Shown: positions 1 to 39,482 of the stretch, one piece after another | Layout: the number at the start of each line of letters is the position of its first letter | Position numbering within the stretch: the first letter of the stretch is position 1 | The notes under the pieces: generated by a model | Told to the model about the DNA's origin: nothing | Databases searched by the model: none | What the model saw: the letters and a program-made list of their open reading frames with translations, nothing else | Program-made: the position numbers and the translations under genes | Source of the DNA: Escherichia phage HZ2R8 | DNA length: 39,482 nucleotides | Strand: one strand, 5' to 3' | Sequence record: NC_047923.1

Positions 1-60
1 AATAACGTTTAAGGATGACACCTGATTGAGACCAAGGATGGTCTTTAATAAGGAGGAGAC

Positions 61-264
61 ATGCTGTCTTTGGACTTCAATAATGAGTTAGTCAAGGCTG
101 CACCTATTGTTGGCACAGGTGTGGCTGATGGCGCTGCGAGGCTTTTCTTTGGGCTGAGTCTTAATGAGTGGTTCTATGTTGCCGCTATCGCCTACACAGT
201 GGTTCAGATTGGTGCCAAGGTAGTCGATAAGATGATTGACTGGAAGAAAGCTAATAAGGAGTGA
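61..264 (+). CDS. 17.5: Holin (class II, T7 gp17.5-like)
   Basis: 67-aa ORF; translation near-identical to T7 gp17.5 as I recall it; SD TAAGGAGG upstream; hydrophobic core. Confidence 0.9.
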   Translation: MLSLDFNNELVKAAPIVGTGVADGAARLFFGLSLNEWFYVAAIAYTVVQIGAKVVDKMIDWKKANKE

Positions 265-2886: not shown

Positions 2887-3330
2887 ATGATAAGCAAGAA
2901 GAAGTATGTTATCGATAAGGAGACTGGTTGCTGGAACTTTAGGGGATGTAAGACGAAGACTGGTTATGGTCGCATTCGTGTGAACGGAGTCCATTGGATG
3001 GCCCACAGGTATTCCCTGAGTTGTCATCTAGGCAGACCGATAGCTGACGGAATGGTTGTGATGCACCTATGTGATAATCCTTCATGTGTTAACCCTGAGC
3101 ACCTTAAGGAAGGGACTCAGAAGGAGAACATAGAGGACTGCATCTCAAAAGGTCGTGCAACTAAGGCCACAGGTAAACGTGATGCAACTAAGAGAGACCC
3201 TAGCGAGGAACGTAAGGCTATAGTGATTCGAAGATACCATAAAGGCTGGACCGCAACGTCCATAGCGAGATACCATAAGCTCTCTGTGGCGTGGGTAAAG
3301 AGGGTCATTGAGGATTACCTAAGTGATTGA
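2887..3330 (+). CDS. HNH endonuclease (HNH_3-type, putative homing endonuclease) with C-terminal HTH-like tail
   Basis: 147-aa ORF; motif VVMHLCDNPSCVNPEHL; clear paralog of the 22818..23210 ORF; AAGGAGG SD; sits between gene 19 and phiOR where I recall no gene in T7. Confidence 0.8.
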   Translation: MISKKKYVIDKETGCWNFRGCKTKTGYGRIRVNGVHWMAHRYSLSCHLGRPIADGMVVMHLCDNPSCVNPEHLKEGTQKENIEDCISKGRATKATGKRDATKRDPSEERKAIVIRRYHKGWTATSIARYHKLSVAWVKRVIEDYLSD

Positions 3331-36500: not shown

Positions 36501-37526
36501 GAACTAGCTGCTCGCTCTCCGTGGACTAAGCTGCTTAATGGAACCACTAACTATCTTCTGGATGCTGCGCGTCAAGGTATGCTTGGGGACGTTATTAGTG
36601 CTACCCTATCTGGGAAGACTACCCGTTGGGAGAAGGAAGGATTCCTCCGTGGCGCGTCAGTTACACCTGAGCAGATGAAAGGAATCAAGGCACTCATTAA
36701 GGAACACATGGTGCGTGGTGAGGATGGTAAGTATACCGTTAAGGATAAGCACGCGTTCTCTATGGACCCAAGGGCTATGGACTTATGGCGACTGGCTGAC
36801 AAGGTAGCTGACGAGGCAATGCTGCGTCCGCATAAGGTGTCCTTACAGGATTCACATGCGTTCGGAGCATTAGGTAAGATGGTGATGCAGTTTAAGTCTT
36901 TCACCATTAAATCCCTTAACTCTAAGTTTCTGCGAACCTTCTACGATGGGTACAAGAACAACCGAGCGATTGACGCTGCGCTGACTGGTATCATCTCTAT
37001 GGGTCTCGCTGGTGGTTACTACGCTATGGCTGCACACGTCAAAGCGTATGGAATGCCTAAGGAGAAACGTAAAGAATACTTGGAGCGTGCATTGGACCCA
37101 ACCATGATTGCCCACGCTTCGTTGTCTCGTAGTTCTCAATTAGGTGCTCCTTTGGCTATGGCTGACCTAGTTGGTGGCCTGTTCGGGGTTGAGTCCTCAA
37201 AGATGGCTCGCTCTACGATTCTGCCTAAAGACACCATGAGGGAGCGTGACCCTAATAAGCCTTATACCTCGTGGGAGGTAATGGGTAATATGGGTTCCAA
37301 CATTCTTGAACAGATGCCATCGGCTGGATTTGTGGCTAACGTTGGGGCTTCCCTACTTAATACTGCTGGCGTGGTGAATGCTCCTAACAAAGCCACTGAG
37401 CAGGACTTCATGACTGGTCTCATGAACTCCACAAAAGAGTTAGTACCAAACGACCCATTGACGCAACAGCTTGTGTTGAAGATTTATGAGGCGAATGGTG
37501 TTAACTTGAGGGAGCGTCGGAAATAA
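33570..37526 (+). CDS. 16: Internal virion protein D (gp16) with N-terminal lytic transglycosylase domain
   Basis: 1318-aa ORF; N-terminal SLT-like motif region (...TESRFQP...GPLGMMQF...AYNQGEG); same length as T7 gp16. Confidence 0.95.
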   Translation: MDKYDKNVPSEYDGLFQKAADANGVSYDLLRKVAWTESRFQPTAKSKTGPLGMMQFTKATAKAMGLRVTDGPDDDRLNPELAINAAAKHLAGLVGKFDGDELKAALAYNQGEGRLGNPQLEAYSKGDFSSISEEGRNYLRNLLDVAKSPMSGQLEAFGGITPKGKGIPADVGLAGIGHKQKVTQELPESTSFDVKGIEQEAPAKPFAKDFWETHGETLDEYNSRSTFFGFKDAAEAELSNSVAGMAFRAGRLDNGFDVFKDTITPTRWNSHIWTPEELEKIRTEVKNPAYINVVTGGSPENLDELIKLANENFEADLRKSEAGLGAQLSAGIIGAGVDPLSYVPMVGVTGKGFKLINKALVVGAESAALNVASEGLRTSVAGGDSDYAGAALGGFVFGAGMSAISDAIAAGLKRGKPEAEFDNEFIGPMMRMEARETARNANSADLSRINTENMKFEGEYKGVPYEELPTEKGAVVLHDGSILSASNPINPKTLKEFSEVDPEKAARGIKLAGFTEIGLKTLGSDDADIRRVAIDLVRSPTGMQSGSSGKYGSTASDIFEKLRGTDQRTYNDLYKAMSDAMKDPEFSTGGAKMSREEARYTIERRVALAIENPELQKALTPNERIVMDIVKRHYDTKRELMENPAVFGNTKAVSIFPESRHKGTYVPHVYDKYAKALKLQRYGAEGLQEGIARSWMCSYDLRPAVKARIDEALKEMHGVEEVTHDMVYKYAMDKAYGISHSDRFTNSSIIEENIEGLVGIENNSFLEARNLFDSDLAITMPDGEQFSVNDLRDFSMFRIMPAYDRRINGDIAIMGSTGKTTKELKDEILALKAKAEGDGKKTGEVHALMDTVKILTGRARRNQDTVWETSLRAINDLGFFAKNAYMGAQNLTEIAGMIATGNMRALGHGIPILRDTLYKSKPVSAKELKELHSALFGKEVDQLIRPQRADIVQRLREATDTGPVVANIVGTLKYSTQELAARSPWTKLLNGTTNYLLDAARQGMLGDVISATLSGKTTRWEKEGFLRGASVTPEQMKGIKALIKEHMVRGEDGKYTVKDKHAFSMDPRAMDLWRLADKVADEAMLRPHKVSLQDSHAFGALGKMVMQFKSFTIKSLNSKFLRTFYDGYKNNRAIDAALTGIISMGLAGGYYAMAAHVKAYGMPKEKRKEYLERALDPTMIAHASLSRSSQLGAPLAMADLVGGLFGVESSKMARSTILPKDTMRERDPNKPYTSWEVMGNMGSNILEQMPSAGFVANVGASLLNTAGVVNAPNKATEQDFMTGLMNSTKELVPNDPLTQQLVLKIYEANGVNLRERRK

Positions 37527-37546
37527 TACGACTCACTATAGGGAGA
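37524..37546 (+). promoter_or_regulatory. Phage RNAP promoter phi17 (perfect consensus)
   Basis: TAATACGACTCACTATAGGGAGA; overlaps the gene 16 stop. Confidence 0.9.
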
Positions 37547-37598: not shown

Positions 37599-39434
37599 AT
37601 GGCTAACGTAATTAAGACCGTTTTGACTTACCAGTTAGATGGTTCGAATCGAGATTTTAACATCCCGTTTGAATATCTAGCCCGTAAGTTTGTAGTGGTA
37701 ACTCTCATTGGTGTTGACCGTAAGGTCCTCACACTCAATACAGATTATCGCTTTGCTACGCGTACTACTATCTCGCTAACCAAATCTTGGGGACCTGCGG
37801 ATGGTTACACTACCATTGAGCTGCGCCGAGTAACCTCCACGACTGACCGTCTGGTTGACTTTACGGATGGCTCGATCCTGCGTGCGTATGACCTTAACGT
37901 GGCTCAGATTCAGACTATGCATGTGGCAGAAGAGGCCCGTGACTTAACTGCTGATACTATTGGTGTCAACAATGATGGTCACTTGGATGCCCGTGGTCGT
38001 CGTATCGTGAACCTAGCGAACGCTGTGGATGACCGTGACGCTGTTCCGCTTGGTCAACTAAAGACGATGAACCAGAACTCTTGGCAAGCTCGCAATGAGA
38101 CTCTACAGTTCCGTAATGACGCTGAGGGTTTCCGTAATGACGCTGAGCGGTTCATGAACTCTGCTAGTGCTTCGTCTGATTCGGCTAACTCCGCTAAGGA
38201 TGCGGCCCATCAATCCAACGTGGAAGCGTATCAACATCGCCTTGCTGCGGAAACAGCTAAGACCGCTGCTCAGCAGTCAAACGTAGAGTCGTACACTTGG
38301 TCTAATAAGTCCAAGGAGTACGCCGAGTCTGCCTCTATGGATGCTGCGAAAGCTGAGCAACAAGCTAACCGCGCTAAGACCGAGGCTGACAAACTAGCTA
38401 ATACCAACGCGTTTGCTGCTACCTTGAAGACAGTTCAGGGTGGGACCGTTGAGTGGCACAAAGAGTGGGGACTCAAGGCTAACAGCTTCGATGCACTCAG
38501 TGATATTACTGCCCTAAACGGTACGATGAACTCTATGGACGTTCGAGCGTCTCGTAACGTAGCAGTAGCTGGTGTGACTTACCCTCAGGGGGGCATTCAG
38601 CAGACTATCGGTACTAACCAGTGGAACCATCTTGTACGGCTGCATATTAACGGTAGACCAAGCTGGGTGGGGGATAAACAAGGACTCCACTTAGCATGGA
38701 ACGAGAATGGAAGTGGTGAGGCAGACTTAATCTGCAACCAAGGTGCTGGGGCTGGAGGCTTCCTCTTTAGGACTGTGAACGACAAGGACAACGTAGAGAT
38801 TGGTCGTGTCACCTTTACTGGTGCTGGTGCTGTGCACGCTAACCACTTCCAAGTCGGCCATAGTCGCATGGAGTCCAACGGGAACGTAGTGGCTGGTAGC
38901 GTACTGTATGCTGGGAATGGTTCCAGTCAAATGGCTCCAGACGGGAACGTCCATGGTCCTCTTTGGGGCGGCTGGCTGTCCAGCTACCTGAACAATAGGT
39001 ACCTTTTCGCTAAGCCGCCTGGAGGGGTTCAGTTATTTACCTCTCGCGGTGGGGACTACCTTGAGGGCGTTGTGGATAACCAAGCCGTTGGGTTCCGGTG
39101 GTTCCTATCAGACAGAAGGCTTAAGGAAAACATAAATGTTCTACGCTCAGCCGACGATATGCTAAATATCATCCGGTCGTACATCCCAGTCACGTACAAG
39201 TATAAGGATTCGGAGTATACTGATAACCGTGGGAGAACTATTACTGTTACTGGTAAGAAGTCTCGTGCAGGCTTCATTACTCAGGACTTGATTAGAATCT
39301 GGCCCGAAGCAGTGGATGTTCTATCGGACGGTATGCAGTCCCCAGACCCTAACCAAATCATCGGTGGACTAATGCTTCTTGTTAAGAACCTAGATGAGCG
39401 GGTTCAGGAGCTAGAGAAGAAGAATAACGTTTAA
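37599..39434 (+). CDS. 17: Tail fiber protein (gp17), mosaic with C-terminal intramolecular chaperone (S74-like) domain
   Basis: 611-aa ORF; N-terminal ~160 aa match the T7 gp17 tail-attachment region; the distal part does not match what I recall of T7; C-terminal ~108 aa from SDRRLKENI carry the chaperone-of-endosialidase signature (YKYKD, GFITQD, PEAV, LxxLxERVQELE). Confidence 0.9.
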   Translation: MANVIKTVLTYQLDGSNRDFNIPFEYLARKFVVVTLIGVDRKVLTLNTDYRFATRTTISLTKSWGPADGYTTIELRRVTSTTDRLVDFTDGSILRAYDLNVAQIQTMHVAEEARDLTADTIGVNNDGHLDARGRRIVNLANAVDDRDAVPLGQLKTMNQNSWQARNETLQFRNDAEGFRNDAERFMNSASASSDSANSAKDAAHQSNVEAYQHRLAAETAKTAAQQSNVESYTWSNKSKEYAESASMDAAKAEQQANRAKTEADKLANTNAFAATLKTVQGGTVEWHKEWGLKANSFDALSDITALNGTMNSMDVRASRNVAVAGVTYPQGGIQQTIGTNQWNHLVRLHINGRPSWVGDKQGLHLAWNENGSGEADLICNQGAGAGGFLFRTVNDKDNVEIGRVTFTGAGAVHANHFQVGHSRMESNGNVVAGSVLYAGNGSSQMAPDGNVHGPLWGGWLSSYLNNRYLFAKPPGGVQLFTSRGGDYLEGVVDNQAVGFRWFLSDRRLKENINVLRSADDMLNIIRSYIPVTYKYKDSEYTDNRGRTITVTGKKSRAGFITQDLIRIWPEAVDVLSDGMQSPDPNQIIGGLMLLVKNLDERVQELEKKNNV

Positions 39435-39482
39435 GGATGACACCTGATTGAGACCAAGGATGGTCTTTAATAAGGAGGAGAC
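39423..39482. repeat. 60-bp exact duplicate of window positions 1-60 (circular-permutation / assembly overlap)
   Basis: AATAACGTTTAAGGATGACACCTGATTGAGACCAAGGATGGTCTTTAATAAGGAGGAGAC present at both window ends; contains the gene 17 stop and the gene 17.5 SD. Confidence 0.9.

What the first reader, a model, noticed from the sequence alone, without database searches (positions are those of the whole stretch)
38080..39434. Mosaic tail fiber: T7-type anchor, foreign distal module, self-cleaving chaperone domain
The first ~160 aa of gp17 match the T7 tail-fiber attachment region. The rest does not look like the T7 receptor-binding tip as I recall it. The last ~108 aa (from SDRRLKENI at 39108) carry the hallmark of the intramolecular chaperone / peptidase S74 domain that trims itself off after fiber trimerisation in K1F-type endosialidases and T5 pb1. 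This implies a swapped host-recognition module, a different receptor specificity from T7, and a mature fiber of ~503 aa. It is the most likely determinant of host range in this genome.
Basis: partly seen in the sequence, partly recalled or inferred. Interest (0 to 1): 0.6.

Follow-up and report, generated by a model that had tools for sequence, protein, structure and literature searches.

The report
T7-like tail fibre with self-cleaving chaperone
This is the tail-fibre gene of a T7-like coliphage (Escherichia phage HZ2R8): a T7-type anchor joined to a phiYeO3-12-type host-binding end, followed by a built-in folding domain that cuts itself off. The design is correctly spotted but already well documented.

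Summary
Gene 17 (window 37599-39434, 611 aa) has a full-length T7 tail-fibre N-terminal domain (PF03906, aa 1-162, E 4.5e-73). It also has a significant Peptidase_S74 intramolecular-chaperone domain starting exactly at S504 of SDRRLKENI (PF13884, aa 504-572, E 2.2e-12, 47.5 bits against a cut-off of 22).

It is the phiYeO3-12/AP5 type of gp17, and that protein has been seen to cut itself (69 to ~58 + ~11 kDa). The same T7-anchor chimera occurs in phages NC-A, 64795_ec1, vB_Yep_9, ESh1 and Bas102.

The window is the deposited genome of Escherichia phage HZ2R8, and the protein is already in GenBank.

Refinements:
- The 5' junction lies at about aa 187, at a 21-nt tandem repeat, not at aa 160.
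- The last ~45 mature residues plus the chaperone form a conserved 3' block.
- Only the central cassette (aa ~188-461) is unique to this phage.

Predicted products are a 54.9-kDa mature fibre and a 12.4-kDa chaperone. This is a new member of a known kind, of low interest.

The parts
37524..37546 (+). T7 RNA polymerase class III promoter (phi17), a perfect consensus TAATACGACTCACTATAGGGAGA. It overlaps the gene 16 stop codon.
   Evidence: Pattern search gave 12 promoter-like sites in the window, 5 of them perfect, against 0 expected by chance. The sequence was read directly.
37599..39434 (+). Gene 17, tail fibre protein, 611 aa plus stop. It is identical to GenBank AUV62662.1 / YP_009798040.1 of Escherichia phage HZ2R8.
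   Evidence: ORF list. PHROG 9502 'tail fiber protein' matches end to end, E 6e-297. Exact-sequence look-up.
37599..38084 (+). N-terminal tail-attachment domain (aa 1-162), T7 type.
   Evidence: PF03906, E 4.5e-73. About 97-100% identical to T7 gp17 1-165 in the solved virion structures 7boz, 8e4g and 8dsp.
37599..38159 (+). 5' conserved DNA block (gene nt 1-561, aa 1-187) shared with T7-like phages. Inferred to act as the upstream recombination arm.
   Evidence: blastn gave 86-87% identity to T7, vB_Yep_9, NC-A, 64795_ec1 and Bas102 over nt 1-549/561, and 96% to PHB19 over nt 1-433.
38109..38152 (+). 21-nt tandem duplication (2 copies, 95% match) encoding FRNDAEG/FRNDAER. It sits at the 3' edge of the T7-like block, that is, at the 5' mosaic junction.
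   Evidence: Tandem Repeats Finder. Junction position.
38085..38459 (+). Shaft segment (aa 163-287), rich in Ala, Ser, Glu, Asn and Gln. It aligns with the T7 gp17 shaft, but beyond aa ~180 only at low identity.
   Evidence: phmmer alignment to T7 gp17 residues 1-287. Sliding identity falls from 90% to 13-47% after aa 180. Helical or coiled-coil character is inferred from the T7 precedent and was not computed here.
38160..38983 (+). Divergent central cassette (gene nt 562-1385, aa 188-461). It contains the presumed receptor-binding region and is the only part unique to this phage.
   Evidence: No match covering at least 80% of it in 50,697 phage records, and no match at all in 5,426 complete E. 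coli genomes. The best partial match is 67% over 300 nt to phiYeO3-12. Protein identity to the closest fibres is 13-67% per 30-aa window.
38670..39008 (+). Core of the distal module (aa 358-470; motif QG..WNE.G.G.....N.G.G.GGF.FRTVN ... DGN..G..WGG). This is a shuffled tail-fibre module with no Pfam family of its own.
   Evidence: An exhaustive phmmer search found 145 representative clusters at E<=1e-3, most matching query aa ~358-470. G362, W367, N368, G373, G382, G384, G386, G387 and G410 are at least 90% conserved in 83 sequences. No Pfam hit.
38982..39107 (+). Conserved pre-cleavage segment (aa 462-503), the last ~45 residues of the mature fibre. Inferred to be the trimeric stem on which the chaperone docks.
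   Evidence: About 53-93% identity to relatives in the 30-aa windows spanning it (aa 451-480: 53-73%; aa 481-510: 80-93%). It is part of the 3' DNA block that is 81-90% identical to phiCFP-1, vB_Yep_9 and NC-A. Many invariant residues (R483, G484-G485, D486, Y487, D493, G498, F499, R500, W501, F502) in alignment A1. The role is inferred.
39108..39110 (+). Codon of Ser504, the predicted catalytic nucleophile. The predicted scissile bond is Leu503-Ser504.
   Evidence: First residue of the PF13884 match. Invariant in 34 sequences. Aligns with the dyad position of the MyRF ICA domain and the phage S16 fibre. The cut site follows the T5 precedent.
39123..39125 (+). Codon of Lys509, the predicted general base of the Ser-Lys dyad (Ser+5, as in T5 Ser1264/Lys1269).
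   Evidence: Invariant in 34 sequences. Spacing and role taken from PMC4690869.
39108..39431 (+). C-terminal intramolecular chaperone / Peptidase S74 domain (aa 504-611, 12.4 kDa), ending in a long helix (aa ~584-609).
61..264 (+). Gene 17.5, the T7-family holin. It is the next gene after 17 once the 60-nt assembly overlap is removed. There is therefore no separate tail-fibre assembly gene downstream.
   Evidence: PF10746, E 1e-35. Window 1-60 is identical to 39423-39482.

Best explanation
Gene 17 of a T7-like coliphage (Escherichia phage HZ2R8) encodes a modular homotrimeric tail fibre of the phiYeO3-12/AP5 class.

Its parts, in order:
- Residues 1-162 plug the fibre into the gp11/gp12 tail, as in T7.
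- A shaft follows.
- A distal region (aa ~290-503) carries a widely shuffled 'WNE...GGFxFR' module and is the presumed receptor-binding end.
- The last 108 residues are an S74 intramolecular chaperone.

Proposed mechanism. After translation the three C-terminal chaperone domains trimerise and template the folding of the distal fibre. Once the trimer is correct, Ser504, activated by Lys509, attacks the Leu503-Ser504 bond. The 12.4-kDa chaperone is released, leaving a 503-aa (54.9-kDa) mature fibre on the virion.

Evolution. The gene looks like a cassette. Its conserved 5' arm (nt 1-561) and 3' arm (nt ~1386-1836) would allow homologous recombination to swap the central host-recognition segment. 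The receptor is most likely a surface polysaccharide such as an O-antigen.

What is shown and what is inferred:
- Shown here: the domain composition, the conserved dyad, the fold and the mosaic boundaries.
- Inferred from homologues: the cleavage itself, the cut position and the receptor class.
For: - Domains: PF03906 at aa 1-162 and PF13884 at aa 504-572, both well above their cut-offs. PHROG 9502 matches end to end.
- Dyad: S504, D505, R507 and K509 are invariant in 34 sequences that are 25-70% identical.
- Cleavage in a homologue: phiYeO3-12 gp17 is 56% identical overall and 80-93% identical in the chaperone. It runs at ~58 kDa with an ~11 kDa fragment, against a theoretical 69.4 kDa (PMC7582827).
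- The same chaperone is noted for AP5, AP10 and phiYe-F10 (PMC6950378) and for Bas102 (PMC11990801).
- Cut position and Ser+5 Lys spacing come from T5 pb1 (PMC4690869).
- No separate fibre chaperone: the holin follows gene 17 directly.
- Mosaic boundaries.
- Receptor class: the phiYeO3-12 group binds O-polysaccharide and Bas102 needs O16 O-antigen. HZ2R8 lyses only 14 of 135 E. coli strains (PMC7598189).
Against: - No experiment on this protein exists. The HZ2R8 paper did not examine the fibre.
- The residue before the Ser is Leu here, but Gln or Asn in phiYeO3-12, 64795_ec1 and Bas102, and Thr in T5. The oxyanion-hole and Arg-sensor residues described for T5 and K1F could not be mapped.
- The receptor-binding part of the model is of low to moderate confidence (pLDDT 40-86). 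The first prediction failed outright (pLDDT 30). The location of the binding site is therefore an inference.
- The central cassette is only 13-67% identical per 30-aa window to fibres of known receptor (about 40-67% in its aa 331-461 part), so an O-antigen receptor is an extrapolation.
Confidence: 0.85

Rival explanations
1. The S74-like domain is a retained, non-cleaving C-terminal domain that stays on the mature fibre, either as the receptor-binding tip itself or as a permanent trimerisation knob. The virion fibre would then be the full 611 aa.
For: Cleavage has not been shown for this protein. The residue before the Ser (Leu503) differs from T5 (Thr) and from some close relatives (Gln or Asn). 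The C-terminal domain is the best-conserved part of the fibre, which would also be compatible with a permanent structural role.
Against: Ser504 and Lys509 are invariant across 34 diverse relatives. A dyad would not be expected to be kept if it had no catalytic use. The phiYeO3-12 homologue, 80-93% identical in this domain, is cleaved into ~58 and ~11 kDa pieces. vB_Yep_9, NC-A and phiCFP-1 also have Leu at position -1, so Leu is a normal variant in this family. A host-specificity tip would be expected to vary between phages with different hosts, yet this domain is nearly identical in Yersinia, Citrobacter, Shigella and E. coli phages.
Confidence: 0.06
2. The distal half is really a diverged T7-type fibre (pyramid plus tip) rather than a swapped module, with the chaperone simply appended.
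For: tblastn reports T7 gp17 aligned to query 1-485 at 50% identity. A short shared stretch exists, query 441-500 against T7 435-493 at 31% identity, which includes the DGN..G..WGG.WL..YL motif.
Against: The 50% figure is carried by the near-identical first 180 residues. Per-window identity to T7 is 7-33% from aa 271 onward (13-47% across aa 181-270), while identity to phiYeO3-type fibres is 40-93% from aa 331. phmmer finds no T7 match between aa 288 and 440. BLASTP of the two distal halves finds only the one 90-residue stretch. The solved T7 tip (4a0t) matches at E 0.019 over about 60 residues only.
Confidence: 0.04
3. The distal module is an enzymatic depolymerase (a tailspike-like domain that degrades capsule or O-antigen), as in K1F endosialidase, rather than a simple binding fibre.
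For: S74 chaperones were first found on endosialidases and other depolymerases. The closest genome backbone, PHB19, carries a long (>970 aa) tailspike-like gp17 on the same anchor.
Against: The segment between the shaft and the cut site is only ~215 aa. It has no Pfam, PHROG or structural match to a beta-helix, sialidase, lyase or hydrolase domain. Its relatives are annotated as tail fibres and share modules with P2, T4 gp34/gp37 and AP22 gp53-type fibres. The related Bas102 protein is described as a simple tail fibre.
Confidence: 0.05

Closest known systems
Yersinia phage phiYeO3-12 gp17 (645 aa) and its close kin (vB_YenP_AP5, AP10, phiYe-F10; Enterobacter E-2/E-3/E-4; Citrobacter phiCFP-1)
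   Same: The order of parts is the same: PF03906 anchor, shaft, 'WNE...GGFxFR' distal module, conserved pre-cleavage stem, S74 chaperone with SDRRLK. Overall identity is 56-58%, rising to 80-100% from aa 481 to the end. Self-cleavage has been observed for phiYeO3-12 gp17. Host-range determination has been shown by gene swap into T3.
   Different: The anchor here is the T7 allele (97-100% to T7) rather than the T3/phiYeO3-12 allele (73-87%). The shaft is about 35 aa shorter and unrelated in sequence. The receptor region is only 37-67% identical. The host is E. coli, not Yersinia.
Teseptimavirus fibres with a T7 anchor plus chaperone: Escherichia phages NC-A, 64795_ec1 and MeretOppenheim (Bas102), Shigella phage ESh1, Yersinia phage vB_Yep_9
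   Same: These are the same chimera, combining a T7-type N-terminus (to aa ~180) with a phiYeO3-type distal half and an S74 chaperone. They are 65-67% identical over the full length. The Bas102 fibre was explicitly described as having a C-terminal IMC and as dependent on O16 O-antigen.
   Different: The central cassette (aa 188-461) is only 13-63% identical per 30-aa window and has no DNA-level similarity. A different receptor specificity is therefore likely.
Phage T7 gp17 (553 aa; PDB 7boz, 4a0t)
   Same: The anchor and the first shaft heptads are near-identical (aa 1-180). The promoter, gene order and genome backbone are T7-like, about 90% DNA identity.
   Different: T7 folds without a chaperone and ends in the pyramid and tip domains. 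Here those domains are absent apart from a ~60-aa motif, and a cleavable S74 domain is present.
K1F endosialidase CIMCD (3gw6), T5 pb1 chaperone (4uw8), GA-1 neck appendage (3gud), MyRF ICA domain (7dc3): MEROPS/Pfam Peptidase S74
   Same: The location is C-terminal, the Ser-x4-Lys dyad sits at the domain boundary, and the fold is alpha/beta followed by a long terminal helix. They are the top structural matches.
   Different: Sequence identity is only 10-25%. The passenger domain is a short fibre tip rather than a sialidase beta-propeller or triple beta-helix (K1F) or the bullet-shaped domain of T5. At 108 aa the chaperone is shorter than the 133 aa of T5.

Membership tests
Peptidase S74 / C-terminal intramolecular chaperone domain (PF13884) | Significant match to the family profile above the curated threshold | tested here: met
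   PF13884 at aa 504-572, E 2.2e-12, 47.5 bits against a cut-off of 22, profile positions 1-57 of 58.
Peptidase S74 / C-terminal intramolecular chaperone domain (PF13884) | Catalytic Ser-Lys dyad with Ser at the first residue of the domain and Lys five residues later (T5 Ser1264/Lys1269) | tested here: met
   S504 and K509 lie in SDRRLK. S, D, R and K are invariant in 34 sequences. The motif aligns with the dyad position in 7dc3 and 6f45. The dyad definition comes from PMC4690869.
Peptidase S74 / C-terminal intramolecular chaperone domain (PF13884) | Located at the extreme C-terminus of a trimeric fibre or spike, about 100-135 residues long | tested here: met
   108 residues from S504 to the stop codon. 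In 34 relatives the motif lies 88-122 residues from the C-terminus.
Peptidase S74 / C-terminal intramolecular chaperone domain (PF13884) | Fold of the solved chaperones (alpha/beta region plus a long C-terminal helix that forms the trimeric coiled coil) | tested here: met
Peptidase S74 / C-terminal intramolecular chaperone domain (PF13884) | Auxiliary catalytic residues (an Arg 'folding sensor' from a neighbouring chain and Asp/Thr forming the oxyanion hole, as in T5 Arg1250/Asp1239/Thr1263) | tested here: inconclusive
   Conserved candidates exist upstream (R483, D486, D493, R500). The -1 residue is Leu, not Thr. No trimer model could be made, so the residues cannot be assigned.
Peptidase S74 / C-terminal intramolecular chaperone domain (PF13884) | Autoproteolytic release after trimer folding | not testable with these tools
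   Seen only for the homologue phiYeO3-12 gp17 (~58 and ~11 kDa against 69.4 kDa; PMC7582827). This protein needs SDS-PAGE or mass spectrometry.
T7-type tail fibre (gp17) N-terminal attachment domain (PF03906) | Full-length match to the domain profile and to the virion-bound T7 gp17 N-terminus | tested here: met
   PF03906, E 4.5e-73, profile 1-157/157. phmmer to 8e4g and 8dsp (T7 gp17 1-165) gives E ~1e-102, with only a few substitutions.
T7 gp17 receptor-binding pyramid and tip domains (PDB 4a0t, T7 aa 371-553) | Sequence similarity across the pyramid and tip domains | tested here: not met
   Only query aa 441-500 aligns with 4a0t residues 110-168, at E 0.019. BLASTP of the distal halves gives a single 90-aa stretch at 31% identity. 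Window identity is 0-33% beyond aa 271.
phiYeO3-12-type gp17 (PHROG 9502) | End-to-end collinear homology including the distal module and chaperone | tested here: met
   phrog_9502 gives E 6e-297, protein 1-610 against profile 1-646/647. tblastn covers 99-100% of the query at 52-67% identity in 41 phage records.

The most novel reading that the evidence does not exclude
The central cassette (aa ~188-461, window 38160-38983) has no close DNA relative in 50,697 phage records or 5,426 E. coli genomes, and the protein is a singleton at 90% identity among ~15 billion proteins. It could therefore encode a receptor specificity (for example an O-antigen or capsule type of pig-associated multidrug-resistant E. 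coli) not yet represented among characterised T7-like fibres. Because it sits between two conserved recombination arms next to a self-contained chaperone, it would be a ready-made plug-in module for retargeting T7.
Probability: 0.35. Interest if true: 0.3.

Novelty: new member of a known kind. Interest (0 to 1): 0.18.

Why it matters
The practical value is modest. The result pinpoints the likely host-range determinant of phage HZ2R8. It predicts the mature fibre as aa 1-503, which is useful for recombinant expression because no helper chaperone should be needed. It also defines the exchangeable cassette and its conserved flanks, which could be used to retarget T7-like phages. Conceptually it adds one more allele to a well-described class (phiYeO3-12/AP5/Bas102-type fibres with an S74 chaperone) and opens no new question.

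Tried and rejected
- Direct phmmer of the C-terminal 128 aa against PDB sequences found nothing. A 4-sequence profile gave only weak hits at E 0.15-0.25, although these were to true S74 members.
- NCBIfam has no model for this protein.
- The word-indexed protein search returned only 5-8 relatives. The first structure prediction, from that shallow alignment, failed at pLDDT 30 and was discarded.
- The second model, built from 34 sequences, is good only for the chaperone. The distal module at pLDDT 40-86 gave no trustworthy fold match, and the T4 gp34 hits at probability below 0.1 were ignored. The fold of the receptor-binding part therefore remains undetermined.
- GC content does not mark the swapped cassette clearly: 0.53 against 0.48 for the flanks and 0.486 for the genome. 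I rejected it as evidence of foreign origin.
- Pfam on aa 280-503 alone gave no family.
- I considered and rejected the weak YadA_stalk hit (aa 135-169, 22.6 bits, below the 28.4 cut-off) as anything more than a generic trimeric-stalk resemblance.
- A literature search for the K1F catalytic residue names found nothing in the open library. The dyad definition therefore rests on the T5 paper.
Full report
**What is there**

The finding lies inside a single ORF, window 37599..39434 on the + strand, 611 aa. A perfect T7 class III promoter (37524-37546) and a strong ribosome-binding site precede it.

Pfam gives three matches:
- PF03906 (T7 tail fibre N-terminal domain) over aa 1-162, with the whole profile covered, E 4.5e-73.
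- PF13884 (Peptidase_S74, 'chaperone of endosialidase') over aa 504-572, E 2.2e-12, 47.5 bits against a curated cut-off of 22.
- A sub-threshold YadA_stalk hit.

**Identity of the window**

- The protein is an exact match to GenBank AUV62662.1 / YP_009798040.1, 'tail fiber protein [Escherichia phage HZ2R8]'. It sits on a 39,482-bp contig, the same length as the window. It is a singleton at 90% identity in a ~15-billion-protein collection.
- Window 1-60 is identical to 39423-39482, so the record is a circularly closed assembly with a 60-nt overlap.
- The gene after 17 is the T7-family holin at 61-264, so no separate fibre-assembly gene follows.
- ORF sizes and order follow the T7 gene map (gp1 RNA polymerase through gp19). 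I saw no candidate for a second fibre or spike gene, but only three ORFs were scanned against Pfam.
- The backbone is ~90-92% identical in DNA to PHB19, 64795_ec1, the Yersinia pestis T7-like phages and T7.
- The HZ2R8 paper reports isolation on multidrug-resistant E. coli from pig wastewater and lysis of 14 of 135 E. coli strains. It does not analyse the fibre (PMC7598189).

**Anatomy and mosaic structure**

Residues 1-165 are nearly identical to T7 gp17 as solved on the virion (7boz, 8e4g, 8dsp). A multiple alignment with sliding identity shows four zones:

| Residues | Similarity |
|---|---|
| 1-180 | 90-100% identical to T7-type fibres (T7, vB_Yep_9, NC-A, Bas102) over aa 1-150, 80-90% over aa 151-180 |
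| 181-330 | Unlike anything (13-53%) |
| 331-480 | 33-73% to phiYeO3-12-type fibres, 7-33% to T7 |
| 481-611 | 80-100% to phiYeO3-12, phiCFP-1, NC-A, vB_Yep_9 and Bas102 over aa 481-600 (the last 11 residues are 55-100%) |

At the DNA level:
- The 5' block, gene nt 1-549/561, is 86-87% identical to T7-like phages, and 96% to PHB19 over nt 1-433.
- The 3' block, nt ~1338/1386-1836, is 81-90% identical to phiCFP-1, vB_Yep_9, NC-A, Bas102 and 64795_ec1.

The central 824 nt (window 38160-38983) has no match covering most of it in 50,697 phage records. The best is 67% over 300 nt to phiYeO3-12. It has no match at all in 5,426 complete E. coli genomes.

A 21-nt tandem duplication (38109-38152, encoding FRNDAEG/FRNDAER) lies at the 3' edge of the T7-like block. 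The 5' junction is therefore near aa 187, not aa 160. The 3' conserved block begins ~45 residues before the cleavage site.

**Is the distal part T7-like?**

It is not. phmmer aligns T7 gp17 only to aa 1-287, and weakly to aa 441-500 (against T7 435-493). BLASTP of the two distal halves finds just that one ~90-residue stretch, at 31% identity. It contains the DGN..G..WGG.WL..YL motif. The '50% over 1-485' reported by tblastn is driven by the N-terminus. The T7 pyramid and tip (4a0t) are not present.

**What the distal part is**

PHROG 9502 ('tail fiber protein') matches end to end at E 6e-297. tblastn finds 41 phage records covering at least 80% of the query. They fall into two groups:
- T7-anchor chimeras at 65-67% identity: vB_Yep_9, 64795_ec1, NC-A, ESh1 and Bas102.
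- The phiYeO3-12 group at 52-58% identity: phiCFP-1, AP10, AP5, phiYe-F10, Enterobacter E-2/3/4, KNP3, IME305 and Serratia 2050H2.

An exhaustive phmmer search of 1.84 billion representatives with aa 280-503 found 145 clusters at E<=1e-3. Most match aa ~358-470. This core (QG..WNE.G.G...N.G.G.GGF.FRTVN) has no Pfam family. Among 83 scanned proteins carrying the core (82 of these hits plus the query) it co-occurs with:
- Peptidase_S74 in 25
- Gp53-like_C in 13
- the T7 N-terminal domain in 9
- the P2-type collar-fibre N-terminus in 7
- the gp34 trimerisation domain in 6

It is therefore a shuffled tail-fibre building block.

**The chaperone**

- In an alignment of 34 proteins (25-70% identical) that pair this module with a C-terminal SD.R.K motif, S504, D505, R507 and K509 are invariant.
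- An AlphaFold2 model from that alignment has pLDDT 85-94 over aa 504-611. It shows an alpha/beta region and a long terminal helix.
- Foldseek agrees, with 7dc3 at E 4e-4. 155 viral models match at E<=1e-3, many of them named S74 or IMC proteins.
- For T5 pb1 the dyad is Ser1264/Lys1269. The Thr1263-Ser1264 bond is cut and the Ser leaves with the chaperone (PMC4690869).
- Transposed here, the cut is Leu503|Ser504.

**Experimental precedent**

- Recombinant phiYeO3-12 gp17 has a theoretical mass of 69.4 kDa but runs at ~58 kDa with an ~11-kDa fragment. The authors attribute this to the S74 domain at aa 539-645 (PMC7582827).
- The same intramolecular chaperone is noted for AP5, AP10 and phiYe-F10. 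phiYeO3-12 gene 17 placed in T3 retargets T3 to Y. enterocolitica, and the receptor is O-polysaccharide (PMC6950378).
- The Bas102 fibre (65% identical) is described as having a C-terminal IMC, and the phage depends on O16 O-antigen (PMC11990801).

**Mechanism proposed**

Shown here:
- the domain composition
- the conserved dyad
- the chaperone fold
- the cassette boundaries
- the absence of a downstream fibre-assembly gene, together with no obvious second fibre gene among the larger ORFs

Inferred:
- The three C-terminal domains nucleate trimer folding of the distal fibre.
- Ser504/Lys509 then cut the chain, leaving aa 1-503 on the virion.
- The variable aa ~290-461 binds a host surface polysaccharide.
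- The conserved arms allow recombinational exchange of the specificity cassette.

**Limits**

- Only a monomer model could be made.
- The receptor-binding part is poorly modelled (pLDDT 40-86), and the first attempt failed.
- The auxiliary catalytic residues known from T5 and K1F could not be mapped.
- The -1 residue is Leu, as in vB_Yep_9, NC-A and phiCFP-1, rather than Thr, Gln or Asn.
- No experimental data exist for this protein.

**Verdict**

The feature is an ordinary, previously documented fibre architecture in an already deposited phage. Only the central receptor cassette is unique. It is a new member of a known kind, of low interest.

Noticed in passing
window 1-60 and 39423-39482: The first 60 bases are identical to the last 60, an assembly overlap of a circularly closed contig. 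The unique genome is 39,422 bp, and the record starts inside the gene 17 / 17.5 junction rather than at the T7-type terminal repeat.
   Followed up: yes
window 2887-3330 (+): A 147-aa ORF just downstream of the large terminase gene (1077-2849) carries HNH_3 (E 9e-9) and HTH_23 domains. It looks like a free-standing homing endonuclease. From memory (not checked with tools), T7 has no such gene at this position.
   Followed up: partly
window 38109-38152: A near-perfect 21-nt tandem duplication (FRNDAEG/FRNDAER) sits at the point where T7-like DNA similarity ends. It may mark, or have promoted, the recombination junction. T7 has a diverged version (FRNEAETFRNQAEGF).
   Followed up: partly
window 3382, 4211, 10215, 10291, 10777, 13170, 14849, 21488, 24818, 25863, 30234, 37524 (all +): Twelve T7-RNA-polymerase promoter matches, five of them perfect class III consensus, against 0 expected by chance. 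The phage therefore uses T7-specificity promoters, not T3 or phiYeO3-12 ones, even though the distal half of its fibre is phiYeO3-12-like.
   Followed up: no
L003 (KU927499.1, Escherichia phage 64795_ec1) 1501-2373 and 2348-3373: The orthologous gene 17 of 64795_ec1 is annotated as two overlapping 'tail fibers protein' CDSs. This is a frameshift in the record, so either a sequencing error or a real disruption.
   Followed up: no
window 38670-39008 (aa 358-470): The 'WNE...GGFxFRTVN' distal fibre module has no Pfam family although 145 representative clusters share it. It combines with at least five different N- or C-terminal fibre modules (S74, Gp53-like_C, T7 anchor, P2 collar fibre, gp34 trimer).
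   Followed up: partly
L007 (MN481365.1, phage PHB19) 2501-5433: The closest genome backbone (PHB19, 92% DNA identity) shares the first 433 nt of gene 17 at 96%. It then switches at aa ~145 to a long (>970 aa) tailspike-like protein. This is a second, more proximal recombination point in the same gene.
   Followed up: no
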